A stretch of DNA of 64,000 bases from a virus. Taxonomy: Duplodnaviria; Heunggongvirae; Uroviricota; Caudoviricetes. Position 1 is the stretch's first letter. Each line of letters starts with the position of its first letter. Below, piece after piece: positions 10,997 through 21,781 of the stretch. Under the pieces are notes generated by a model. It did not search any database and had not been told where the DNA came from. It saw only the letters and a list, made by a program, of their open reading frames with translations. The DNA is taken from positions 1 to 64,000 of the IMG/VR virus record IMGVR_UViG_3300001765_000263; one strand, given 5' to 3'. The position numbers and the translations under genes were made by a program.

Positions 10997-12145
10997 ATGG
11001 CAAACATAAAAGACCCAGTAGAATTACGCAGGGCAGGCAGTTCAGAAACAGGTGATTTTAATATCAGTGAATTAATGTATCCTGAAGACCTCTATACAGA
11101 TCAGAAAAAACACATGGTGGTATTCTTCATCAATGTGCCTGGACATTCAAAAATTGGTAGCAAACTATCTAGTGCAAATGAATCTACGTTGAAACCATAT
11201 GTTGGAAAGAGTGGGTCATCTCAAACAAAAGATTTTTTGGGTGTTGGAACAGTCGATATTGGTGGATTAGAAATATCCGTAGCACCTGGATATAAACAGT
11301 TGAAATCTGCCATTGCTATGTACATGCCCCCAAGTTGGCAAGAGCAATATAACGCAAACTATGAAAAGGCAAACAGTCGATATATTCTAAACTTGATGTT
11401 GGAGGCAAATGCCGCAGCAAATGGTCAAGGAACAAGTCGTTTAGCAGAGGCAGGGAAATCCTTGGGCAAGAGTTTATTACAAGGCACAGTGGGCAAAATA
11501 TTCAGTGCTGTAGCAGGTGGTGAGGCACTAGGAAATAAAATTATGGGTAAGATGACCAACCCCAATGCAGAACAAATATTTAATGGTATGGAGTATCGAG
11601 CATTTGAATTCTCTTGGTTAATGGCCCCTAGATCAAGAAAAGAAGCAGACAACATTCTACAGATCATCAACACATTTAAATACCACATGCATCCTGAACT
11701 ATCTCCAGGTGACAATAATCTCATATTCCCTGCAGAGTTCGAAATCGAATTCTATTCTGGTGGAAATGTCAACCAATTTGTGGGTAGTTTATCCACATGT
11801 GCATTATCTAGCATGATTGTCAATTACACACCAGACAATGCATGGTCGGCATTTAAAGGCACAGATGGTTATCCAACGGCAATCACTTTAACCTTGCAAT
11901 TCGTTGAACTAGAACCATTGACAAAAGATCGATTTGATGAATGGGGTGAAGGTGCAAATGCTGCAGGACGTGGTGTCGGTGGTTCTGGTGGGTCTTCTGG
12001 TGGAACATCTAGTAGTCCAATTGGAAATACCACAGATAGATCATATGATCAAGCAGAGTCGAATAGACTAGGCAATTATCCTGCACCTTCTACAGGACTA
12101 ATGGGAAGTGCTGCTGGCTTAATAAACCCAAGAGATAGAAACTAA
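10997..12145 (+). CDS. baseplate protein, possibly the second gp48/gp54-type tube-fold protein
   Basis: HMVVFFINV...YRAFEFSWLMAPRSRKEADNILQIINTF loosely follows the gp19 tube-fold pattern (F.F.W...a...i..F). The Gly/Ser-rich tail is GGSGGSSGGTSSS. It is first in the plus-strand baseplate operon. Confidence 0.35.
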   Translation: MANIKDPVELRRAGSSETGDFNISELMYPEDLYTDQKKHMVVFFINVPGHSKIGSKLSSANESTLKPYVGKSGSSQTKDFLGVGTVDIGGLEISVAPGYKQLKSAIAMYMPPSWQEQYNANYEKANSRYILNLMLEANAAANGQGTSRLAEAGKSLGKSLLQGTVGKIFSAVAGGEALGNKIMGKMTNPNAEQIFNGMEYRAFEFSWLMAPRSRKEADNILQIINTFKYHMHPELSPGDNNLIFPAEFEIEFYSGGNVNQFVGSLSTCALSSMIVNYTPDNAWSAFKGTDGYPTAITLTLQFVELEPLTKDRFDEWGEGANAAGRGVGGSGGSSGGTSSSPIGNTTDRSYDQAESNRLGNYPAPSTGLMGSAAGLINPRDRN

Positions 12146-12738
12146 TGATAAAAAATCTACCAAAAATTTACTACGATTTCGCCATTGAAGACGAATCGAA
12201 AAAACCGATAATCATACCAGATACATTAGTGCGTATCAAGCATCTAATAACAGAATTAGAAAATAATAACCTATTCTTTTACTACACTATTCTGGATGGT
12301 GAAACCCCTGAAATAGTGTCTCACAAGTTTTACGAGACAATGGACTATCATTGGACAATTTTATATGTTAATGATCGATTCGACTATATCACTGACTTTC
12401 CTATGAGTGACAACGATTTGCTCAATTTTGTCAAGAGAAAATATGGTGAGGATCAAGTGGATGCCATTCATCACTATGAAAATGCTCATGGCAATATAAC
12501 AGATGAATATTATTATGATTACAAGAACCGTTATGGAAATCAACCGTCAGTACCAGCACCTAGTTCAACCATGACGTGGAATAGTGATTTATATAAAGTT
12601 GCTGCAAGTCCAATTACTAATTTCGAATATGAAATTATAAAAAATGAAAAGAATAGAATAATAAAAGTAATTAAACCATCATATATAAGTGAATTTGTCA
12701 AGAAATATACTAAATTAATGAAAGACTCGACTAAATGA
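12145..12738 (+). CDS. 53: baseplate wedge protein gp53-like
   Basis: 197 aa, close to T4 gp53's approximately 196 aa. YHWTILYVNDRFDYITDF...GEDQVDAIHHYENAHGN aligns with the T4 gp53 core LYWVLLMCNDNYDPYYGW...GGDQIVYHVNENGE. It sits immediately upstream of the gp27/gp5 pair. Confidence 0.55.
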   Translation: MIKNLPKIYYDFAIEDESKKPIIIPDTLVRIKHLITELENNNLFFYYTILDGETPEIVSHKFYETMDYHWTILYVNDRFDYITDFPMSDNDLLNFVKRKYGEDQVDAIHHYENAHGNITDEYYYDYKNRYGNQPSVPAPSSTMTWNSDLYKVAASPITNFEYEIIKNEKNRIIKVIKPSYISEFVKKYTKLMKDSTK

Positions 12739-14009
12739 ATGAAAATGAATTGGCAATGGGTGGTGATGTAGAGATATCAAAAATAAAACTCTACAATTAC
12801 AAAGGTCTCTACACTGATATTCAATACATGTTCACGGAAATAGAGTTATATGAAAACATATACGAACACTCTCTTTCTGGAACAATCACCATGGTGGATA
12901 CACACAATCTGATAAAAGCATTCCCTATCATTGGTGAAGAAAACCTTGAATTGGTATTTAAAACTCCAGGTTTTAGTGATGAACACGAAATTTCACACAC
13001 ATTCAAAATATGGAAACTCGACAATATATTTACACCAACACCACACAAGCAGATATATACATTACATTTCACCACGCCAGAAGCATATACAGATAAAAAT
13101 ATAAAACTGTTCAAAGCATATAACGGAACACCATCTAGCATTATATCACAGATACTTAACTCTGATATAGGCACAAAGAAGAAAAGTACTATCGGATCAT
13201 GCAACAACAATATCAAATTTGTTGCCCCTAGTATGAGTCCATTTAGATCAATAAGTTATCTGACATCCAGAGCACAGACCGTTGATGGGTTCAAGGCATC
13301 AGACTTTTTGTTTTATGAGAATAATAAAGAATATAGACTAGATTCTGTCAATGATATATTCGATAAAGCAGGTGATCCATCTGTTGAATTTATTTACAAT
13401 AATGATCCTGCACGAGATGGAATCATTAATACCTCAGTCAGAAGTGTTGAATCTGAATTGTCTAAAGTATATGAATATAATATTGATTTTAAATTCGATA
13501 TTATTGATAGATATAATAACGGATTCTATTCCCATTTTGTATGGGAACACAATTTATTGATCAAGAAATTAACAAAACGTGGGTATCATTATAACCAAGA
13601 TTTTAGCAAAACAAAGCATCTAGAAGACTCTCCTATTTCATCTGATAATCATTCAATTGGAAAGAATACCGTTCTTTCCACTGTAACCACTTATCCACAA
13701 ATTCATGATGGCATCATGGAGGATAACTTTGGCAAGATTATCACCAATAAGATTCCTTTATTGGAACAACTCAGGGCAGTGCAAATTGATATCAAAGTTC
13801 ATGGTCGAACTGATCTGGCAGTAGGTAAGGTTATCAAACTGAAATTCACTGGTATGGAAGTACAGATGAAGGATGATACCGATAAGGTTGATGATAAGTA
13901 TGATGGTAAGTATTTAATTGTGGCAATGGCACACAGAATAACTGCCCATAATAAACACGCAATAACCATGCGTCTTGCTCGTGAAAGTGTTAAGGATGGA
14001 TATAAATGA
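12735..14009 (+). CDS. baseplate hub protein, gp27-like by position
   Basis: 424 aa, directly upstream of and start/stop-coupled to the gp5-like spike. The size and position fit the gp27 hub. Only a weak C-terminal pattern similarity. Confidence 0.4.
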   Translation: MNENELAMGGDVEISKIKLYNYKGLYTDIQYMFTEIELYENIYEHSLSGTITMVDTHNLIKAFPIIGEENLELVFKTPGFSDEHEISHTFKIWKLDNIFTPTPHKQIYTLHFTTPEAYTDKNIKLFKAYNGTPSSIISQILNSDIGTKKKSTIGSCNNNIKFVAPSMSPFRSISYLTSRAQTVDGFKASDFLFYENNKEYRLDSVNDIFDKAGDPSVEFIYNNDPARDGIINTSVRSVESELSKVYEYNIDFKFDIIDRYNNGFYSHFVWEHNLLIKKLTKRGYHYNQDFSKTKHLEDSPISSDNHSIGKNTVLSTVTTYPQIHDGIMEDNFGKIITNKIPLLEQLRAVQIDIKVHGRTDLAVGKVIKLKFTGMEVQMKDDTDKVDDKYDGKYLIVAMAHRITAHNKHAITMRLARESVKDGYK

Positions 14010-16609
14010 CAAATAAGATTGGGAACAAAATTGTATGGTTTGGTGTCGTGGAAGATCGTATGGACCCACTATTTTTGGGCCGTTGTCGAGTACGTATTGT
14101 AGGTATTCACACTGATAACTTAATTGAATTGCCTACATCAGATTTACCTTGGGCATGGCCATTACAAACAATTGGAAGTGCTGCTATATCTGGTGTCGGT
14201 AATGCTCCTGTTGGACCAGTTGAAGGAACATGGATTGCTTGTACATTCTTGGACGATTGGCAACAGCAACCATTTATGTTAGGTGCTATAGGTGGCATTC
14301 CAGTACCACTAGATGACAAGGCAGAAGACATTGAGGGATTTTTAATTAATGATGTGCAAGGGAATGCCACATCAAAATCTAATCCTCCACCAGCACCTTC
14401 TAATGCAGTTAAAGACAGTTCTGGCGAACCAATCAAAACTGGATCTGGTGGATATGTAACCACTGATCCTGCTATATCCACACCTAACACAATTGGTAAT
14501 TTAACACCAGAACAATATTCAAATCTGAAGGACAAAATTGGTAAAGTAGAATCTGGTGGAAAATACGACATTGTAGAAGCAAAGAATGGTAACTATCTAG
14601 GCAAGTATCAGATGGGTGCAGAGGCATTGGAGAGTGCTGGATATATAAAACCTGGTGCATCAAAACGCTATGGCACAAAGGCAGTGCAAGACCCTAGCAA
14701 TTGGACTGGTAAAGATGGTGTCACATCGAAGGATTCATATTTAAAAAATCCAACGGCACAAGAAAGTGCCATGGATTCGAATCTTAAAACAAACTTTAAG
14801 GCAACAGGACTAAGCAATTCTATACCTGCAGATAAACAAGCAGGTGTTCTCATGGCATCACATTTGGTGGGTGCAGGTGGTGCGAAGAAATTATTAAATG
14901 GTGATAACCCTAAAGATGCCAATGGCACAACAGCAGCAAGCTATTTCCAGAAGGGTGCATCTGTTGTCACAGGCAAATCATCTAATGAAGTGCCAAAGGC
15001 AGCAAATTTAGCCAAACCTGCAATTGACACTAACGTGGAAAACACTTCACTTAGTGATAAGGGTAAATTTGATCCAGACAATATGCCAGAGGTCATAAAG
15101 AAATTAAAGACTAAGGCATCTGAGAAAATTGGTTTCACTGATCCAAACGAAAAATATCCTAAAGAGGAATGGTTGAAAGAACCAGACACACATCGTTTGG
15201 CACGTCATCAATCTATTGATAAGACCATTGTTCCTACCAAGGAAGAAGAACGTGATAAAGAAATACCAATTGCCAATGCTGAAGATACATGGGATCAATC
15301 GTTAATTCCATACAATGCAAAATACCCATTCAATCATATCTTCGAATCGGAATCAGGTCATACCATTGAGATTGATGATACTGAAGGAATGGAAAGAATA
15401 CACATCTATCACAAGACAGGAACATTCATTGAGATTGACTCAGAGGGAACATTGACCAGACGAGTTAAAGGCAATGAAGTCACTATCTCAGAAAACGACA
15501 ACAAGACGCATATTATGGGTACTGGTATTCTCACAGTCGATGGAGATTTTGCTGTAGAGATTCACAAGTCATTACAAATATTTGTTTCAGGTGATGCACA
15601 AATAAAGGTTGAAGGCAATGTCATTCAAGAGATTGACGGCAACTATGATAGTCACGTAAAAGGCAATATGACAGTACAGTGTGACGGTGACTATAATCTG
15701 AAAGTTAGTGGTAATTCAATTGAGGAAACTGAAGGTGACTTTGATCAGAAAGTTGGAGGTGACACATCAGAAGAAGCAGGTGGAAACTACACTATTCAGG
15801 CAGGACCATTGTATGCAGTTGATGCAGGACAAGTACATAATAACTCTGGCAAGGCAACTGGTGCGTCTGGTGCTGAAGATGCAGCACCTATTGAAGTGTT
15901 CGAACCAGACCTTAAAGTTCTCGATCCTACAACAAGACAATCTGCAAGTGATTTTGAAATGGAAGATGCTGCTGAAGAGGATAAAGTCAAATATATTGAG
16001 GAAAAGAAATTGAGTGGCAATTCGCCTAAAGAAGCACCTATGCCAGAAAATGAGAAGAAAAAAGACACAGCACCAGCACCAAATATTGATCAGTACAAGA
16101 GCAATCCAAACAGTGAAACATTGAAACCACCATTCACCAAAGATACTCAACTGTCAACCAATTTTAAATTAGGTGATCTATGTCCAAAAGGATTACCACC
16201 AGAAGGTGGGCAAGCGGGACTAACACAAGCACAAATTGTTCAGAATTTGAAAGATACAAGTATCAACGTGTTAGAACCAATGAAGGAAAAATATCCAGAC
16301 CTTAAGGTTAATAGTGGTTTCCGTGAAGGTGCTGGCACATCACAACATCATAAAGGGCAAGCAGTTGATCTATCCTATGGTGCAGCAAATGCATCTACTA
16401 ATAAGAAATCAATGATGCAAGATTTTGCTTCTGATATTAAGAATAGCACTGCACATGATCAGATCATTCTTGAGACTGCAGGTGGTAATTCAGCATGGGT
16501 TCATGTATCGAATAACCCACAAGGAAATAGACCCAATTCTGATCCTACTAAACACATGACTATGGATACATCTACTGGCAAGAAAACTAGTGGATTAGGA
16601 TTTGCATGA
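14006..16609 (+). CDS. 5: baseplate central spike, gp5-like: N-terminal OB-fold, beta-helix, then a C-terminal peptidase M15 (VanY / L-Ala-D-Glu peptidase-like) domain
   Basis: N-terminus KIVWFGVVEDRMDPLFLGRCRVRIVGIHTDNLIELPTSDLPWAWP is the gp5 OB domain. Repetitive V-x-G-x beta-helix (GNVIQEIDGNYDSHVKGNMTVQCDGDYNLKVSGNS...). C-terminus SGFREG...SQHHKGQAVDL...WVHVS matches the M15 Zn ligands (SxHxxGxAxD plus a distal His). YLGKYQMGAEALESAGY in the middle resembles a T4-lysozyme FQMGETG-like segment, but that resemblance is weak. Confidence 0.8.
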   Translation: MTNKIGNKIVWFGVVEDRMDPLFLGRCRVRIVGIHTDNLIELPTSDLPWAWPLQTIGSAAISGVGNAPVGPVEGTWIACTFLDDWQQQPFMLGAIGGIPVPLDDKAEDIEGFLINDVQGNATSKSNPPPAPSNAVKDSSGEPIKTGSGGYVTTDPAISTPNTIGNLTPEQYSNLKDKIGKVESGGKYDIVEAKNGNYLGKYQMGAEALESAGYIKPGASKRYGTKAVQDPSNWTGKDGVTSKDSYLKNPTAQESAMDSNLKTNFKATGLSNSIPADKQAGVLMASHLVGAGGAKKLLNGDNPKDANGTTAASYFQKGASVVTGKSSNEVPKAANLAKPAIDTNVENTSLSDKGKFDPDNMPEVIKKLKTKASEKIGFTDPNEKYPKEEWLKEPDTHRLARHQSIDKTIVPTKEEERDKEIPIANAEDTWDQSLIPYNAKYPFNHIFESESGHTIEIDDTEGMERIHIYHKTGTFIEIDSEGTLTRRVKGNEVTISENDNKTHIMGTGILTVDGDFAVEIHKSLQIFVSGDAQIKVEGNVIQEIDGNYDSHVKGNMTVQCDGDYNLKVSGNSIEETEGDFDQKVGGDTSEEAGGNYTIQAGPLYAVDAGQVHNNSGKATGASGAEDAAPIEVFEPDLKVLDPTTRQSASDFEMEDAAEEDKVKYIEEKKLSGNSPKEAPMPENEKKKDTAPAPNIDQYKSNPNSETLKPPFTKDTQLSTNFKLGDLCPKGLPPEGGQAGLTQAQIVQNLKDTSINVLEPMKEKYPDLKVNSGFREGAGTSQHHKGQAVDLSYGAANASTNKKSMMQDFASDIKNSTAHDQIILETAGGNSAWVHVSNNPQGNRPNSDPTKHMTMDTSTGKKTSGLGFA

Positions 16610-17298
16610 CATATACAGTAACACCAATTGCGGTTCAAATAGTAGAAGGAACTCCCACATTTAACGAAACATTAACAGTTACGTGTGATGGGGAAAATAC
16701 TGGCACTGCAACGGTAATTGAAGTTACAACAGATGCAACCAGCATAGACTTGAAATACACAAAGAAAGATAACACTGCAACGGTTACTGGATCGGTAATT
16801 AAGAAATCTCTCGCAGAATTTTCAAGAACCTATTCATACGTCACAGACGATAATCAACGTGGTGTAGTTACATCGATATCACAAGTTCCATCGAATGCAT
16901 CCATTTACAGATATACCGCACCAAACCCAATGGGGAATGTAGTTCCAGCAAATATAAAAATTGAATGCACGTCTGGAACTGGTGGTACAAGTACATCAGC
17001 ATGGGCATGTGGAGTAGACACATATGGGGCATTGGGATTTAATGGGGAATCTAAAACAACACTAACCTCCCTTGGGGCATATTCAAAAATAAATCAAGGG
17101 TACGGGCTAACTGCACTAATAAAACCAAATGGCACATTATGGACATGTGGATATAATTATTTCGGTGGATTAGGACTAGGTGACAATATTAATAGATCAT
17201 CACCAACACAAGTTGGAAACTACATGGAAAGAGGTAAGTTGTGCATACAACAGATTATTTGCAATCAAGACAGATGGATCATTGTGGGGTTGTGGTGA
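16606..17298 (+). CDS. RCC1-like repeat protein, 5' segment of a frame-disrupted gene
   Basis: Has an ATG start. RCC1-type blades (WACGVDTYGALGFNGESKT..., GTLWTCGYNYFGGLGLGDNINRSSPTQVG). The frame breaks at 17215-17225, inside a 113-bp repeat. Confidence 0.5.
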   Translation: MTYTVTPIAVQIVEGTPTFNETLTVTCDGENTGTATVIEVTTDATSIDLKYTKKDNTATVTGSVIKKSLAEFSRTYSYVTDDNQRGVVTSISQVPSNASIYRYTAPNPMGNVVPANIKIECTSGTGGTSTSAWACGVDTYGALGFNGESKTTLTSLGAYSKINQGYGLTALIKPNGTLWTCGYNYFGGLGLGDNINRSSPTQVGNYMERGKLCIQQIICNQDRWIIVGLW

Positions 17299-18934
17299 CA
17301 ATTTAAATCAAATATTAGGTTTCGGTGACGATATTCATAGATCAATACCTACACAAGTTGGAACATTGCGTACTTGGAAAACAGTAAATTGTCAAACATC
17401 AAAGACATTAGCAACAGATACATTAAATCGTGCTTGGTTGTGGGGATATGATGGATATGGAGAATTTGGATTAGGCGAATCTGGCAAGGTATTTTCAACA
17501 CCAACCTTATTAGATGAATATTCAATTGCCTTTACACCACTACTTACTGTGTATGGATGGAATAGTTCTGGCAAATTTGGAGACCCACAAACCTTTTTTT
17601 TATTACCAAAAACACTGGATTATGCCGATTCTGATTGGATTAACTCTTATATAAAAAACACCATGTATCATATGGCAATAGTTAAAGGAAATGGTACATT
17701 ATGGGCAACTGGAAATATACTATATGATCAATATTTGTATACTACAGCATCATCACCTGTACAAATTGGATCACTTTCTGATTGGAGTAAAGTTTCAGTT
17801 GGTGAAGCGTACACAATGGCATTAAAAATGGACGGTACGCTATGGACGTGGGGAAATGCTGCCGAAGGAAGATTGGGGGTTGGTGATGACTCACCTAGAT
17901 ACTCTCCGACACAAGTTGGAGTGTCTAGTGATTGGGATAGTGTTAGTTGCGGGTTGTGGCACACCGCAGCAATTACTATTAACGGTGTAATGTGGGCATG
18001 GGGAACACAGGCATCTTATGCACTAGGAAATGGTAATAGTTATGGATATCAACCATCTCCAATAGAAATTACACAGGAATATGATAGTTCATTAGCAGTA
18101 GTACCGACAACAAACAATTGGAATCAGGTTAGTTGTGGCTCAAATTATACTTTAGCGATAAAAACTACTGGCACGTTATGGGGTTGTGGATATAATAATA
18201 GTGGGCAATTGGGGCTTAGTAGTTATAATAATTCTCCATACTTTAGACAAGTTGGAACTTTATCTAATTGGTCTAAAGTTGATACTGCCAATAATTCAAG
18301 ATTTAGCACTTTAGCAGTCAAAACAAATGGTACATTGTGGGCATGGGGAAGAAATGATTATGGACAACTAGGATTGGGAGATACATTACCAAGAATTTCT
18401 CCAGTGCAGGTTGGAACTAATACCAATTGGAGTGATGTGTCTTTTGTAGAGTATTATACTTTAGCATTAAACAATCAGGGTGGATTGTTTCAATGTGGAT
18501 ATTGGAATAATAACTATGTTGTTACATTAACAGAAGTCGAACCAAACTCAACATGGTCAAATTTTTATGTTAAAAACACCCCAATAAAAACTCATATAAC
18601 AGATATCTATTGGAAAGACACTGATATATCATTGGAGAATTTCATTGGTATTAAAGAAGATGGCACACTATGGGCATGCGGGTATTATGCTGTAGAATTG
18701 ATGGGATTTCCTGGTGAATACGGTGCGCCAACATCAACATCGTCATTAGTTCAAATTGGAATGGATACAGATTGGAAAACATGTTCTGTAAATTTTGGTA
18801 CTGCAGCAGTAATTAAAACTGATGGCACATTATGGACATGTGGATATAATTATTTCGGTGGATTAGGACTAGGTGACAATATTAATAGATCATCACCAAC
18901 ACAAGTTGGAAACTATCTACATGGAAAGAGGTAA
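17180..18934 (+). CDS. RCC1-like repeat protein, middle segment. There is no ATG and the listed GTG start lies inside the upstream repeat, so this is probably a continuation rather than an independent gene.
   Basis: The blade pattern continues in the +1 frame immediately after the break (…TTWKEVSCAYNRLFAIKTDGSLWGCG…). It ends at a second frame break in the second repeat copy. Confidence 0.45.
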   Translation: MTILIDHHQHKLETTWKEVSCAYNRLFAIKTDGSLWGCGDNLNQILGFGDDIHRSIPTQVGTLRTWKTVNCQTSKTLATDTLNRAWLWGYDGYGEFGLGESGKVFSTPTLLDEYSIAFTPLLTVYGWNSSGKFGDPQTFFLLPKTLDYADSDWINSYIKNTMYHMAIVKGNGTLWATGNILYDQYLYTTASSPVQIGSLSDWSKVSVGEAYTMALKMDGTLWTWGNAAEGRLGVGDDSPRYSPTQVGVSSDWDSVSCGLWHTAAITINGVMWAWGTQASYALGNGNSYGYQPSPIEITQEYDSSLAVVPTTNNWNQVSCGSNYTLAIKTTGTLWGCGYNNSGQLGLSSYNNSPYFRQVGTLSNWSKVDTANNSRFSTLAVKTNGTLWAWGRNDYGQLGLGDTLPRISPVQVGTNTNWSDVSFVEYYTLALNNQGGLFQCGYWNNNYVVTLTEVEPNSTWSNFYVKNTPIKTHITDIYWKDTDISLENFIGIKEDGTLWACGYYAVELMGFPGEYGAPTSTSSLVQIGMDTDWKTCSVNFGTAAVIKTDGTLWTCGYNYFGGLGLGDNINRSSPTQVGNYLHGKR

Positions 18935-19233
18935 GTTGTGGGTATAAAAGTTTTATTGCACTAAAGACAGATGGCACAATATGGACATGTGGGTATAACA
19001 ATTATAATTTAGGATTTGACGACGCACTTCATAGATCGTCACCATGTCAAGTCGGAACATTATCCACATGGTCTGATATAACTATAACTGAAAATGCAAT
19101 TGGTGCAATTCAAGGTATAGCAGGAACTGGTACAACTAACATAGTAAATATACCGTTCAACTTTAATATTCAATCAGATTGGAATAAGGCTAATTCTGAA
19201 TTGATTACTGCCGTTAAAGGGAGAACTGTGTAA
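18889..19233 (+). pseudogene. RCC1-like repeat, 3' segment back in frame 1 (no start codon). With the two ORFs above it looks like a single frame-disrupted or recoded gene.
   Basis: Frame 1 is open from 18889 to TAA at 19231-19233. It encodes …TWKEVSCGYKSFIALKTDGTIWTCGYNNYNLGFDDALHRSSPCQVGTLSTWSD…, i.e. further blades. Confidence 0.35.
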
Positions 19234-19523
19234 TGCCAGCAATTACTAGATTAGGTGTTGATCCTAGTGCAGGACATTGTTTTCCTCCGAGACCAACTGA
19301 TACTGCAGGACAAGGAAGTGTTTATTGTAATAACATATTGGCAACAGTTATTGGCGCACATTACCCAACACATTGTTGTCCACCACCATGTCATGATGGA
19401 GTAGCATCACAAGGTTCGCCTAATGTATTCTATGAAAATATACCAGTTCATAGAATTGGTGATGCCATTAGTTGTGGTGATATATCAGCATCTGGATCAC
19501 CTGATGTATTCGCTAATGGGTAA
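19233..19523 (+). CDS. 5.4: PAAR-repeat spike-tip protein (T4 gp5.4-like)
   Basis: 96 aa. GSPNVFYENIPVHRIGDAISCGDISASGSPDVFANG shows PAAR motifs. A His/Cys cluster (GHCFPP...HCCPPPCH) fits the Zn site. Confidence 0.75.
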   Translation: MPAITRLGVDPSAGHCFPPRPTDTAGQGSVYCNNILATVIGAHYPTHCCPPPCHDGVASQGSPNVFYENIPVHRIGDAISCGDISASGSPDVFANG

Positions 19524-19631: not shown

Positions 19632-20024
19632 ATGCAACAAAATTACCTTTACTCAGACTTTGGTCTTCTCTTTAAGAAACATCCTACAACACAGGATATG
19701 ATTCTTAAGTATGACGTGGATTCGGTCAAACAAGCATTGCAAATATTGTTCTTAACCAACAATTATGAGAAACGGTTTGACCCAAAATTTGGGGTTGGTA
19801 TTTACCATATGTTGTTTGACAACATTACTCCATTGACAAAGATTACCCTACTCAAAAAGATACAAAATCAGTTAGCCTACTACGAACCTCGTGTTGTTAT
19901 TGATGATCTGCAGATCAACGTAGATAAAGGTGACAATAATGAAATTACCGTGGATTTCTATTTCCATGTGGTAGGTCAGCTAAAAACAGAACTTTTAACC
20001 CTTAATTTTGCGAGAATTAGATGA
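19632..20024 (+). CDS. 25: baseplate wedge protein gp25 (GPW/gp25 family)
   Basis: 130 aa. YLYSDFG...VKQALQILFLTNNYEKRFDPKFGVGIYHMLFDNITPLTK...YEPRV matches T4 gp25 KLYSDID...RPFDPEFG...LFENMTPLTA...YEPRI. Confidence 0.85.
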   Translation: MQQNYLYSDFGLLFKKHPTTQDMILKYDVDSVKQALQILFLTNNYEKRFDPKFGVGIYHMLFDNITPLTKITLLKKIQNQLAYYEPRVVIDDLQINVDKGDNNEITVDFYFHVVGQLKTELLTLNFARIR

Positions 20025-21781
20025 GCACATTAAACAGTAAAATCCGTGTATCAGAACTTGATTTTGAGTCTATCAAGACCAATTTTAAATCGTTCATGTC
20101 TGCACAGTCAGAATTTGCCGACTATGATTTCGAGGCATCTGGAATGTCTATTCTTATGGACTTGCTTGCATATAACACATACTACAATTCTGTTCTGGCA
20201 AACTACACTGCAAATGAAACCTTTATTGACAGTGCGGTGAAGAGAGATTCTGTCGTGTCACATGCCAAAGCATTAGGATATACCCCAAAGGCAGTTAAAT
20301 CGTCTCGTGCTAAATTAAAAATGACTCTAAGGAATGTGATGGGAGAACCGTCACAATTAGTCATGCCAGCAGGTACGCCATTTGAAGCAACCATCAAAGA
20401 AGATGTGTATCAATTCGTTACTATCGATACCACTGTAGCACCTGTCAGTGACAACGAATTTACCTTTGACAGTTTCTATGTTTATCAAGGAATATTTCAG
20501 CAAAATACCTTTTATGCCAATGGAGACGTAGTAGAAAAGTTTACTCTACCAAATCCAAATGTGGATGTAACCAGCATACGTGTGTATGTGAGAAAGTCAG
20601 AGAGTGACTTGGATATGGTAGCGTATGGTCATGTTGATACTATTATTGATCTAAACCCAGAATCCATTGTGTTCTTTACACAAGAAGGCATTTCAAACTT
20701 GACAGAAATATACTTTGGTGATGGTATTCTAGGAAAGCAACTTGCTGCCGGTAACGTCGTTCATGTTACCTATATCACCTCTGCAGGACAGGTTACAAAC
20801 GGGTGTAAGGTATTTAAATTGACTGGTGCAGTTGAGGGGAATACCAACGCGACAGTGACTACATTAGAGATTGCATCTGGTGGTTCTGATGCCGAAGAAA
20901 TCGAATCGATTCGATTCAACGCAATGACATATTTTGGTGTTCAGAATCGTGCGGTTACAGCAGAAGATTCTCGTGCATTAGTTATGCAGAAATTCTCAAA
21001 CATCAAAGATATTATTGTGTGGGGTGGAGAGAAACAAACCCCTCCTGAATATGGCAAGATCTTCATATGTGTCCAACCAAAGAACACAGATTTCTTGACA
21101 ACATCTGAAAAAGAAGAGATTACCACTATTGTTAAACAACGTGCAGTAGCTAACATTTCACCTAAGTTTGTTGATCCAGAATTCATCGACATAGAATTAT
21201 ATGCAGATGTATATTATGATAGATTCAGAAATGATAAATCGACTGTAGATCTAAAGAATATAGTGGTGTCAGATATAAACGACTATGCAAACAAATTCTT
21301 AAATAGATTTGACAGCATTTTAAGGTATTCTTTAGTTAGTAAGATTATAGATTCGTCTGATTATTCTATTTTAAGCAACTTACTAAAAATAAAGGTTTAT
21401 AAATCATTTTTACCTGTATTATTTTATCAGAATATAATCAGTTTTAAATTCTACAATAATATTACTAGTATCGGTTCAACTGGTTTTTATGTTGAGGGTT
21501 TAGCAGAAAAAGTGTATGTAAGAAATAATGGATCTATTGCTCAATTATATTACTACACTGCAACAAAAGAATTAAAGATATATAAGGATGTTGGTACTGT
21601 AGATTTAACAAACGGAACTATTAATCTAGATCCATTGTTAATAACAAAATTTGATGGTTCTGAGATAAGGTTATATGCAACTCCATATATTAATGATGTG
21701 TTTTCAAAGAATAATAATATTACCAGACTTCAATCGAAGAATGTGTTTGTAAATATCTATGATGATAAAATAAGGTCATAA
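20021..21781 (+). CDS. 6: baseplate wedge protein gp6 (baseplate J-like)
   Basis: ADYDFEASGMSILMDLLAYNTYYNSVLANYTANETFIDSAVKRDSVV matches the T4 gp6 N-terminal block LDYDFEGSRLNVLCDLLAYNTLYIQQF...SFMRTANLRSSVV. Gene order is 25-6-7-8. Confidence 0.8.
   Translation: MSTLNSKIRVSELDFESIKTNFKSFMSAQSEFADYDFEASGMSILMDLLAYNTYYNSVLANYTANETFIDSAVKRDSVVSHAKALGYTPKAVKSSRAKLKMTLRNVMGEPSQLVMPAGTPFEATIKEDVYQFVTIDTTVAPVSDNEFTFDSFYVYQGIFQQNTFYANGDVVEKFTLPNPNVDVTSIRVYVRKSESDLDMVAYGHVDTIIDLNPESIVFFTQEGISNLTEIYFGDGILGKQLAAGNVVHVTYITSAGQVTNGCKVFKLTGAVEGNTNATVTTLEIASGGSDAEEIESIRFNAMTYFGVQNRAVTAEDSRALVMQKFSNIKDIIVWGGEKQTPPEYGKIFICVQPKNTDFLTTSEKEEITTIVKQRAVANISPKFVDPEFIDIELYADVYYDRFRNDKSTVDLKNIVVSDINDYANKFLNRFDSILRYSLVSKIIDSSDYSILSNLLKIKVYKSFLPVLFYQNIISFKFYNNITSIGSTGFYVEGLAEKVYVRNNGSIAQLYYYTATKELKIYKDVGTVDLTNGTINLDPLLITKFDGSEIRLYATPYINDVFSKNNNITRLQSKNVFVNIYDDKIRS

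What the first reader, a model, noticed from the sequence alone, without database searches (positions are those of the whole stretch)
14006..16609. gp5-type central spike with a peptidase M15 domain placed after the beta-helix, and a separate PAAR tip gene
In T4 the lysozyme domain sits between the OB domain and the C-terminal beta-helix, and the PAAR protein caps the helix tip. Here the order is OB-fold (14.0-14.3 kb), a weak lysozyme-like segment (YQMGAEALESAGY, about 14.58 kb), the beta-helix (about 15.5-15.8 kb), a roughly 100-aa charged, disordered linker, and then a C-terminal Zn-peptidase M15 domain (SGFR...SQHHKGQAVD...WVHV, about 16.2-16.6 kb). A PAAR tip cannot bind a helix that is capped by the M15 domain, so this order suggests the peptidase module is cleaved off during maturation.
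Basis: partly seen in the sequence, partly recalled or inferred. Interest (0 to 1): 0.6.

Follow-up and report, generated by a model that had tools for sequence, protein, structure and literature searches.

The report
Phage tail spike carrying tethered peptidase
This gene encodes the cell-puncturing tail spike of an uncultured T4-like marine phage; it carries a sugar-cutting domain in the usual place and a second, zinc-peptidase domain tethered behind the needle, a layout common in sequence databases and in four isolated phages, though I found no paper describing it.

Summary
ORF 14006-16609 (867 aa) has this domain order:
- gp5 OB fold
- a lysozyme-fold domain resembling a lytic transglycosylase
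- the gp5 beta-helix, ending at N613
- an 86-residue acidic, proline-rich tether

A plain 96-aa PAAR gene lies at 19233-19523.

The layout is not unique. Of the 120 best homologues, 112 carry the metal-site motif in the same position, as do the isolates Cr30, pf16, Melnitz and BUCT-ZZ01.

- Plain PAAR genes sit next to or near gp5-M15 genes in Cr30, Melnitz and BUCT-ZZ01.
- In other phages (Milchi, Vibrio 1.244.A, PA5oct-like) the same M15 module hangs from the PAAR protein's C-terminus instead, on a tether of similar length.
- The type VI secretion (T6SS) spike VgrG2b has a C-terminal metallopeptidase and needs PAAR3 for delivery.

My best reading is a phage counterpart of an "evolved VgrG": the peptidase stays tethered beside the PAAR tip. 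Cleavage, as in lactococcal Tal2009, remains possible but is untested.

Verdict: a new member of a catalogued, uncharacterised kind, of moderate interest.

The parts
14006..16609 (+). gp5-type central spike gene, 867 aa (identical to P0001)
   Evidence: ORF list. PHROG 430 'baseplate hub subunit and tail lysozyme' E 1.8e-85. T4 gp5 chain 1pdl_A E 2.4e-46. The exact protein is on record from WGS project JFJP01.
14018..14341 (+). N-terminal OB-fold domain (residues 5-112)
   Evidence: Pfam Gp5_OB 82.7 bits. Aligns to T4 gp5 residues 4-114.
14501..15040 (+). Lysozyme-fold domain resembling a lytic transglycosylase (about residues 166-345). The candidate catalytic Glu E182 (nt 14549-14551) sits in a conserved 'ES' motif.
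   Evidence: AlphaFold model pLDDT 91.1. Foldseek: MltE probability 1.00, i-type lysozymes and destabilase 0.97-0.99. E182 and S183 are at least 90% conserved in 61 homologues. No Pfam hit for this stretch.
15254..15844 (+). gp5C region: the segment before the helix plus the triple-stranded beta-helix (residues 417-613). It ends at the conserved 'LN' of the motif LNSG.
   Evidence: phmmer to T4 gp5 365-565, domain E 4.5e-22. Pfam Gp5_trimer_C 29.7 bits, just under the 30.9 cut-off. The short gp5 proteins of Milchi and Vibrio 1.244.A stop exactly at '...IDLN*' and '...ILLN*'.
15845..16102 (+). Tether (residues 614-699): acidic, Pro-rich and poor in hydrophobic residues, with conserved positions P634, L639, R644, E653, G671 and P678
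   Evidence: Composition. Column conservation in 112 homologues. pLDDT is 51-72 for residues 690-709.
16103..16606 (+). C-terminal M15A/LAS-type zinc-peptidase domain (residues 700-867). Key residues: R773 (16322-16324), H781 (16346-16348), D788 (16367-16369), E823 (16472-16474), H833 (16502-16504).
19233..19523 (+). Plain PAAR spike-tip protein, 96 aa, with no extension domain
   Evidence: Pfam PAAR_motif 31.3 bits (cut-off 27) and PHROG 281 E 1.1e-22. PDB 4JIV_D E 2.1e-6, T4 gp5.4 E 1e-3. It is the only PAAR in the 64-kb window.
12735..14009 (+). gp27-position hub protein (424 aa), the presumed partner of the spike
   Evidence: PHROG 350 'tail protein' E 2.7e-73. Same position upstream of gp5 as in related loci. 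No Pfam or PDB sequence hit, so the gp27 identity rests on position only.
10997..12738 (+). gp48-like tail-tube cap (10997-12145) and gp53-like wedge protein (12145-12738): baseplate context upstream
   Evidence: Pfam T4_tail_cap and Phage_gp53; PHROG 230 and 232.
19632..21781 (+). gp25-like (19632-20024) and gp6-like (20021-21781) wedge proteins: baseplate context downstream
   Evidence: Pfam GPW_gp25 and Gp6-like_1st; PHROG 261 and 219. The closest gp6 proteins are about 35% identical, in pelagimyophage Mosig, Melnitz and cyanomyoviruses.

Best explanation
The ORF is the central baseplate spike (gp5 homologue) of an uncultured marine T4-like myovirus. It works like a phage version of an 'evolved VgrG'. 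Three chains form the OB collar and the triple beta-helix needle, and each chain carries two cell-wall enzymes. A lytic-transglycosylase-like domain sits where T4 has its lysozyme. A zinc peptidase of the M15A/LAS type hangs from the far end of the needle on a flexible tether of about 86-100 residues.

The separate 96-aa PAAR protein caps the flat end of the helix. The three tethers leave sideways at the conserved LN|SG junction, so PAAR and the peptidases coexist at the tip. On sheath contraction the tip is driven through the outer membrane into the periplasm. There the glycan-cutting domain and the peptide-cutting M15 domain together open the peptidoglycan for the tail tube.

Shown: domain identities and order, conservation of the catalytic residues, co-occurrence with PAAR, and the alternative fusion of the same module to PAAR. 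Inferred: that the module stays tethered in the virion, that PAAR binds the uncleaved trimer, the enzymatic specificity, and where the module sits during penetration.
For: - Domain identities and order.
- Catalytic set: R773, H781, D788 and H833 are invariant in 112/112 homologues and E823 is kept in 110/112. H781, D788, E823 and H833 align with the Hedgehog/LAS metal site.
- The architecture is under selection and widespread: 112 of the best 120 homologues carry the motif in the same position. The M15 module occurs in 886 representative clusters; of the best 150, 79 are on gp5 and at least 21 on PAAR.
- The distribution is complementary. Where gp5 carries M15, PAAR is plain (window, BUCT-ZZ01, Melnitz, Cr30). 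Where PAAR carries M15, gp5 is a bare OB plus helix (Milchi, Vibrio 1.244.A).
- Median tether length is about 102 aa in gp5 fusions and about 104 aa in PAAR fusions.
- Precedents: VgrG2b with a C-terminal metallopeptidase needs PAAR3 for delivery (PMC7376260). The C-terminal extension of V. cholerae VgrG-3 degrades peptidoglycan (PMC7043769). The phage P2 spike is delivered to the periplasm, as shown by cell fractionation after infection (PMC12407873).
Against: - No structure of a trimer with PAAR could be computed here, so compatibility is argued from co-occurrence and from T6SS genetics, not shown.
- T4 gp5.4 binds a flat platform made by the very C-terminal strands (PMC12407873). Artificial C-terminal fusions to VgrG1a were suspected of weakening PAAR binding (PMC7043769).
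- The window protein has N612 where most homologues have a hydrophobic residue in the last strand.
- No virion proteomics was found for any gp5-M15 phage.
- The Pfam M15 models score below their cut-offs.
- No PAAR gene lies within about 5-8 kb of gp5-M15 in loci L003, L004 and pf16. Their whole genomes were not searched.
Confidence: 0.6

Rival explanations
1. The M15 module is cut off at or near the helix/tether junction during tail maturation, freeing the flat helix end for PAAR. The released peptidase is lost, or is kept non-covalently in the way T4 gp5* and gp5C stay together.
For: - The junction is a conserved LN|SG followed by a run of small residues, and stand-alone gp5 proteins end exactly at LN.
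- T4 gp5.4 binds the flat C-terminal platform.
- Tal2009 and the TP901-1 Tal shed a C-terminal M23 lysin domain in a fraction of virions (PMC6115969).
- Fusions to a VgrG C-terminus may disturb PAAR binding.
- From my own knowledge: T4 gp5 itself is cleaved during assembly, but between the lysozyme domain and the helix.
Against: - No protease or self-cleaving motif was identified, and M15 enzymes act on D-amino-acid or gamma-linked peptides, not ordinary protein backbone (my own knowledge).
- A module discarded before infection would not explain the strict conservation of its catalytic residues, unless it stays associated with the particle.
- PAAR-M15 fusions show the module works while tethered at the same spot.
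- VgrG2b is secreted with its C-terminal domain attached and depends on PAAR3.
Confidence: 0.25
2. The C-terminal domain is not an enzyme in the virion. It is a peptidoglycan-binding or purely structural tip decoration that uses the LAS fold.
For: A sub-clade of homologues (P0084, P0086, P0090, P0107, P0110, P0117, P0118) keeps the fold but has lost all three metal ligands. Hedgehog N-domains show that the fold can have non-catalytic roles.
Against: In the window protein and in 112/112 close homologues the ligands and R773 are invariant, and E823 is kept in 110/112. Free-standing relatives are annotated as 'peptidase M15' or endolysin in pelagiphage podoviruses.
Confidence: 0.05
3. The M15 part doubles as, or mainly is, the phage's lysis enzyme. 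It would be produced separately by an internal start or released from unassembled gp5 late in infection.
For: Homologous stand-alone M15 proteins are the annotated endolysins of small pelagiphages. The Milchi homologue is annotated 'endolysin'.
Against: - There is no T4-type late promoter inside the gene, and no convincing internal ribosome-binding site before M679 (read by eye).
- The Milchi 'endolysin' is in fact a PAAR fusion sitting in the baseplate operon.
- The module is nearly always at the C-terminus of a spike component.
Confidence: 0.05
4. The C-terminal module is an intramolecular chaperone that helps the beta-helix trimerise and is then removed, as in endosialidase tailspikes.
For: It sits C-terminal to a trimeric beta-helix. 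That is the only evidence.
Against: The fold is a LAS peptidase with intact catalytic residues. The same module occurs on monomeric PAAR and as a free protein. Short gp5 proteins have no such module yet keep the helix.
Confidence: 0.03

Closest known systems
Bacteriophage T4 gp5 (tail-associated lysozyme, central spike) with its tip protein gp5.4
   Same: Homologous OB domain and beta-helix. A glycan-cleaving domain sits between them. A separate PAAR-type tip gene is present. The gene lies among gp48, gp53, gp27-position, gp25 and gp6 homologues.
   Different: The middle domain is lytic-transglycosylase-like, not the GH24 T4 lysozyme. The chain does not end at the helix tip but continues for 254 residues into a tether and an M15 peptidase.
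gp5-M15 spikes of isolated phages: Caulobacter Cr30, Pseudomonas pf16, Methylophilales Melnitz, Synechococcus BUCT-ZZ01 (all annotated only as 'baseplate hub subunit / tail lysozyme')
   Same: The same post-helix tether plus M15 module, 35-42% identical over the module. Cr30, Melnitz and BUCT-ZZ01 also encode a plain PAAR.
   Different: The middle domain differs: GH19 in BUCT-ZZ01, Phage_lysozyme2 in Cr30, none in pf16. Overall identity is below 37%. The pf16 paper does not mention the C-terminal peptidase (PMC5587285).
T6SS 'evolved' VgrG spikes: P. aeruginosa VgrG2b (C-terminal Zn-metallopeptidase) and V. cholerae VgrG-3 (C-terminal peptidoglycan hydrolase)
   Same: A gp5-like helix followed by a C-terminal periplasm-acting enzyme domain, working together with a PAAR tip. 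VgrG2b delivery needs PAAR3.
   Different: This is a phage virion protein, not a secretion-system component. gp27 is a separate gene. There is no DUF2345 or TTR module above the Pfam cut-off, and the effector family differs (M15/LAS). Its role is to breach the wall for DNA entry, not to kill a competitor.
PAAR-M15 fusion proteins of Pseudomonas phages Milchi, Astolliot, the vB_PpuM series and PA5oct-like phages, and of Vibrio phage 1.244.A
   Same: A homologous M15 module (34-40% identical) on a tether of about 80-175 aa, median about 104 aa, attached to a spike-tip component in the baseplate operon.
   Different: The anchor is the monomeric PAAR, giving one copy per spike instead of three. 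The partner gp5 is a bare OB plus helix.
Tail-associated lysins Tal2009 (Tuc2009) and the TP901-1 Tal of lactococcal siphophages
   Same: A tail-tip protein with a C-terminal peptidoglycan peptidase. Partial proteolytic removal of that domain gives two virion types (PMC6115969). This is the precedent for the cleavage hypothesis.
   Different: Non-contractile tails, Gram-positive hosts, an M23 rather than an M15 domain, and no PAAR. Homology to the window protein was not tested.
Streptomyces albus G zinc D-Ala-D-Ala carboxypeptidase (PDB 1LBU; MEROPS subfamily M15A, from my own knowledge)
   Different: A free secreted bacterial enzyme with an extra N-terminal domain. In the window protein the first His of the LAS 'HxH' motif is Trp (W831), and a Glu (E823) occupies the position of the Hedgehog-type catalytic Glu.

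Membership tests
T4 gp5-type central spike | N-terminal gp5 OB-fold domain | tested here: met
   Pfam PF06714 82.7 bits against a cut-off of 25. Aligns to T4 gp5 residues 4-114.
T4 gp5-type central spike | C-terminal triple-stranded beta-helix homologous to gp5C | tested here: met
   phmmer domain E 4.5e-22 to T4 gp5 365-565. Pfam Gp5_trimer_C scores 29.7, just under its 30.9 cut-off. The trimeric fold itself could not be modelled.
T4 gp5-type central spike | GH24 (T4-type) lysozyme domain between OB and helix | tested here: not met
   No Phage_lysozyme hit. The domain matches MltE and i-type lysozymes instead. Some homologues do have PF00959 in this position.
T4 gp5-type central spike | Polypeptide ends at the helix tip, forming the flat platform for the tip protein | tested here: not met
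   254 residues follow the helix end at N613.
T4 gp5-type central spike | Located in the baseplate hub/wedge gene cluster | tested here: met
   Flanked by gp48-, gp53-, gp27-position, gp25- and gp6-like genes.
T4 gp5-type central spike | Maturation cleavage between the lysozyme domain and the helix | not testable with these tools
   Needs virion protein chemistry.
Peptidase M15 / LAS (Hedgehog/DD-peptidase fold) | The fold | tested here: met
Peptidase M15 / LAS (Hedgehog/DD-peptidase fold) | Metal ligands H-x6-D ... H, plus a catalytic acid and a substrate-binding Arg | tested here: met
   H781, D788, H833 and R773 are invariant in 112/112; E823 is kept in 110/112. H781, D788, E823 and H833 align with the Sonic hedgehog metal site.
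Peptidase M15 / LAS (Hedgehog/DD-peptidase fold) | Score above the curated Pfam cut-off (PF08291, PF02557 or PF13539) | tested here: not met
   PF08291 18.2 bits against 23.2; VanY 16.1 against 25. Several homologues carry a precomputed PF08291 hit.
Peptidase M15 / LAS (Hedgehog/DD-peptidase fold) | Zinc-dependent cleavage of peptidoglycan peptides | not testable with these tools
   Needs an enzyme assay.
PAAR spike-tip proteins (gene 19233-19523) | PAAR-repeat domain above the Pfam cut-off, with similarity to solved tip proteins | tested here: met
   PF05488 31.3 bits against 27. 4JIV_D E 2.1e-6, T4 gp5.4 E 1e-3.
PAAR spike-tip proteins (gene 19233-19523) | Binds the end of this spike's helix | not testable with these tools
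   No multimer modelling was available. Supported only by gene co-occurrence.
T6SS evolved VgrG | Fused gp27-like and gp5-like modules encoded in a T6SS locus | tested here: not met
   The gp27-position protein is a separate gene, and all neighbours are phage baseplate genes.
T6SS evolved VgrG | An effector domain C-terminal to the helix, used together with a PAAR tip | tested here: met
   Tether and M15 follow the helix, and a PAAR gene lies 2.6 kb downstream. It works like an evolved VgrG but is not a member of that family.
Lytic transglycosylase / lysozyme-like superfamily (middle domain) | Lysozyme-like fold with a catalytic Glu at the end of the first helix | tested here: met
   Foldseek MltE probability 1.00 with TM-score only 0.39-0.46. 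E182 and S183 are at least 90% conserved.
Lytic transglycosylase / lysozyme-like superfamily (middle domain) | Match to a curated sequence model (SLT or similar) | tested here: inconclusive
   No Pfam hit. Only weak NCBIfam hits to the aggregation-promoting-factor C-terminal domain, E 4e-5 and far below the cut-off.

The most novel reading that the evidence does not exclude
Phages have their own 'evolved spikes'. A mobile M15 peptidase module on a tether of about 100 residues has moved between the C-terminus of gp5 (three copies per spike) and the C-terminus of PAAR (one copy). It therefore always sits at the helix/PAAR junction and is carried through the outer membrane with the tip. In gp5-fused forms such as this one, the conserved LN|SG junction and the P634/L639/R644/E653 tether motif might mediate either docking around PAAR or a regulated partial cleavage that yields two kinds of virion, as in Tuc2009. 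This would make the phage spike a natural model for how C-terminal cargo and a PAAR cap share one helix end, which is still an open point for T6SS.
Probability: 0.4. Interest if true: 0.55.

Novelty: new member of a known kind. Interest (0 to 1): 0.4.

Why it matters
- It shows that the T6SS idea of an enzyme fused behind the needle and used together with a PAAR cap also exists in phage tails, and is common among marine and freshwater T4-like phages.
- It gives a concrete, testable system (Cr30, pf16, Melnitz, BUCT-ZZ01) for asking how a PAAR tip and C-terminal cargo share one helix end.
- It corrects annotations. These genes are labelled only 'tail lysozyme', and the Milchi PAAR-M15 protein is labelled 'endolysin'.
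- It points to a large family of virion-borne peptidases presumably active on Gram-negative cell walls: 886 representative clusters.

Tried and rejected
- The word-indexed homologue search with the isolated C-terminal domain found nothing. Full HMMER later found 886 clusters.
- Megablast of 20 kb of the window against phage genomes gave no match, so the source phage has no close sequenced relative. The best gp6 identity is about 35%.
- Literature searches for gp5 with M15, PAAR with peptidase M15, PA5oct with PAAR, and pf16 found no paper describing a post-helix peptidase on a phage gp5. Only open-access text was searched.
- I tested whether the conserved tether motif (residues 626-662) also occurs in the tethers of PAAR-M15 proteins. 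There were no significant hits (best E 0.16; BUCT-ZZ01 gp5 0.02). The motif therefore belongs to the close gp5-fused clade, not to the module.
- There is no internal T4-type late promoter inside the gene: TATAAATA is absent there, and its eight copies in the window match chance expectation. Read by eye, there is no convincing internal ribosome-binding site.
- The Shneider 2013 PAAR structure paper could not be retrieved, so where the PAAR termini lie rests on my memory.
- The gp27-position protein has no Pfam or PDB sequence hit. Its identity rests on PHROG 350 and position.

Full report
**What is there**

The reported coordinates match a single ORF, 14006-16609 on the + strand, 867 aa. Its start overlaps the stop of the upstream gene by 4 nt, and its stop overlaps the next start by 4 nt.

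The neighbours form a T4-type baseplate cluster:
- gp48-like tail-tube cap (10997-12145)
- gp53-like wedge protein (12145-12738)
- a 424-aa protein in the gp27 position (12735-14009; PHROG 350 only)
- the spike gene
- a block of RCC1-repeat ORFs (16606 to about 19230)
- a 96-aa PAAR protein (19233-19523)
- gp25-like (19632-20024) and gp6-like (20021-21781) wedge proteins

The window has no close DNA relative among 50,697 phage records. Its gp6 is about 35% identical to those of pelagimyophage Mosig, Methylophilales phage Melnitz and marine cyanomyoviruses. The exact spike protein is on record from the metagenome WGS project JFJP01.

**Domain by domain**

- Residues 5-112 are a gp5 OB fold: Pfam 82.7 bits, aligned to T4 gp5 residues 4-114.
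- Residues 417-610 align to T4 gp5 365-565, which covers the segment before the helix and the triple beta-helix (domain E 4.5e-22).
- Between them, the 'weak lysozyme-like segment' belongs to a well-defined domain, about residues 166-345.
  - With an alignment of 61 homologues the model has pLDDT 91.1.
  - Its best solved matches are the lytic transglycosylase MltE (Foldseek probability 1.00, though TM-score only about 0.4) and i-type lysozymes.
  - The 'ES' pair E182-S183 is at least 90% conserved.
  - No curated sequence model recognises the domain.
- The helix ends at N613.
  - In homologues the motif there is LNSG.
  - The short, stand-alone gp5 proteins of Pseudomonas phage Milchi and Vibrio phage 1.244.A terminate exactly at '...IDLN' and '...ILLN'.
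- Residues 614-699 form an acidic, proline-rich stretch poor in hydrophobic residues: 23% Asp+Glu, 14% Lys+Arg, 9% Pro.
  - The stretch is not featureless. P634, L639, R644, E653, G671 and P678 are each kept in 70-97% of 112 homologues.

**The C-terminal domain**

Pfam's M15 models score below their cut-offs (Peptidase_M15_3 18.2 bits against 23.2; VanY 16.1 against 25). On its own this would be weak. Three other lines settle it.

2. In 112 homologues R773, H781, G784, A786, D788 and H833 are invariant, and E823 is kept in 110.
3. A profile of the domain aligns H781, D788, E823 and H833 with the metal-site residues of Sonic hedgehog. From my own knowledge these are H141, D148, E177 and H183.

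The domain is very probably an active LAS/M15A-type peptidase. Most homologues have a Cys pair at positions 701 and 746. The window protein has Pro and Gln there.

**How common is the layout?**

It is very common.
- The full-length search returned 763 proteins at E <= 1e-5. The best 120 are mostly 750-950 aa with 95-100% coverage, and 112 of them carry HxxGxAxD about 80 residues from the end.
- The middle glycosidase is interchangeable: lytic-transglycosylase-like, GH24, GH19, Phage_lysozyme2 or absent. The post-helix M15 stays.
- Isolated phages with the same layout are Synechococcus BUCT-ZZ01, Caulobacter Cr30, Pseudomonas pf16 and Methylophilales Melnitz. All are annotated only as 'baseplate hub / tail lysozyme'.
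- The pf16 paper does not mention the peptidase, and I found no paper that does.

**The key comparative result**

A full HMMER scan with the M15 domain found 886 representative clusters. Among the best 150, 79 are on gp5, at least 21 are on an N-terminal PAAR domain (proteins of 314-409 aa), and the rest are short or unassigned.

Milchi and Vibrio 1.244.A show the PAAR-fused form in context. They have a bare gp5 (OB plus helix), a small intervening gene, then PAAR-tether-M15. The distribution is complementary:
- Where PAAR carries the peptidase, gp5 is plain.
- Where gp5 carries it, PAAR is plain. This holds for the window, for BUCT-ZZ01 (PAAR about 34 kb away), for Melnitz (PAAR directly after gp5) and for Cr30 (PAAR overlapping the gp5 stop).

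The distance from the anchor to the start of the peptidase core has a median of about 102 aa in gp5 fusions and about 104 aa in PAAR fusions.

**What this says about mechanism**

The concern is legitimate. T4 gp5.4 binds the flat platform formed by the C-terminal strands (PMC12407873). T6SS workers suspected that artificial C-terminal fusions weaken PAAR binding (PMC7043769).

It is not compelling, however. The evolved spike VgrG2b has a C-terminal metallopeptidase and strictly needs PAAR3 for secretion and delivery (PMC7376260). VgrG-3 carries a C-terminal peptidoglycan hydrolase. The phage data above show the same module working while tethered to PAAR itself.

My best reading (about 0.6) is a phage counterpart of an evolved VgrG. 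PAAR caps the helix. The three tethers leave at the LN|SG junction. The tip, with three transglycosylase-like and three M15 domains, enters the periplasm, as shown for the phage P2 spike. There the two activities cut glycan strands and peptide stems or cross-links to let the tube through.

Cleavage (about 0.25) remains a real alternative. It has a phage precedent in Tal2009 and the TP901-1 Tal, which shed a C-terminal M23 lysin in part of the virions (PMC6115969). The conserved junction is where it would be expected to occur.

The minor rivals fit the data poorly: a non-catalytic binding domain, a dual-use endolysin, and a folding chaperone.

**Limits**

- There is no proteomic evidence for any of these phages.
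- Enzyme specificity is unknown.
- In two metagenomic loci and in pf16 no PAAR lies within the 5-8 kb I could see.
- The gp27 identity of the upstream gene rests on PHROG 350 and position only.

**Verdict**

The protein is a new member of a catalogued subfamily (PHROG 430 covers it) that has not, as far as I could find, been characterised. In function it parallels evolved VgrG spikes. Interest is moderate (0.4). The most useful outcome is the link between gp5-M15 and PAAR-M15 fusions, and a set of culturable phages in which the question of tethered versus cleaved can be answered directly.

Noticed in passing
window 16606-19230 (+): The RCC1-repeat gene block between gp5 and PAAR is read in three frames: 16606-17298, then 17180-18934, then back to the first frame from about 18900 to 19230. 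The frame switches lie in 110-nt direct repeats (17113-17222 and 18806-18915, 95% identical). This could be assembly collapse in repeats, recombination, or real frameshifts. The first ~130 aa are not RCC1-like. Related phages have gp25 directly after gp5, so this block is an insertion.
   Followed up: partly
homologues P0084, P0086, P0090, P0107, P0110, P0117, P0118 (metagenomic gp5 proteins of about 1000-1060 aa): A sub-clade keeps the C-terminal M15-fold domain (phmmer E 1e-12 to 1e-17) but has replaced all three metal ligands (H to F, D to N, H to T). It also has a tether of about 330 aa rich in Gly, Leu, Asn and Ala. This is a catalytically dead version with an unknown role.
   Followed up: partly
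L002 6943-7947 (Pseudomonas phage Milchi, XPP60747); L005 6088-7077 (Vibrio phage 1.244.A): The protein annotated 'endolysin' in Milchi is an N-terminal PAAR domain joined by a tether to an M15 domain, and it sits in the baseplate operon. The Vibrio protein annotated 'PAAR motif protein' has the same layout. A small unannotated gene (231 aa, helical, in Milchi; 165 aa in the Vibrio phage) lies between gp5 and the PAAR-M15 gene.
   Followed up: partly
homologues; L001, L007, L008: The enzymatic domain between OB and helix is swapped freely among otherwise similar spikes: lytic-transglycosylase-like (window), GH24 (PF00959), GH19 (PF00182, for example BUCT-ZZ01), Phage_lysozyme2 (Cr30), or none (pf16, 510 aa).
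   Followed up: partly
L006 10364-13407 (Methylophilales phage Melnitz): Melnitz gp5 is annotated as two abutting ORFs. The first has OB plus a VanY-like hit at residues 229-282 (E 1e-4). The second has the helix plus the C-terminal M15. This spike may therefore carry two M15-type domains, or the gene may be split by a frameshift.
   Followed up: no
window 16103-16606 (residues 701 and 746 of the spike): Most homologues have cysteines at the positions equivalent to 701 (78-92 of 112, depending on the alignment) and 746 (89 of 112). This could be a disulfide suited to the periplasm. The window protein has Pro and Gln there, so both are lost together.
   Followed up: no
L008 5473-5904 (Pseudomonas phage pf16 gp209): In pf16 the gene after gp5-M15 is not a PAAR. 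It is a DUF5675 protein (E 1e-30) with a weak Tlde1-like hit. Whether pf16 has a PAAR elsewhere was not checked.
   Followed up: no
window 12735-14009 (+): The 424-aa protein in the gp27 position has no Pfam hit and no PDB sequence hit, although its PHROG 350 match is strong. It is a very divergent hub protein whose gp27 identity is only positional.
   Followed up: partly
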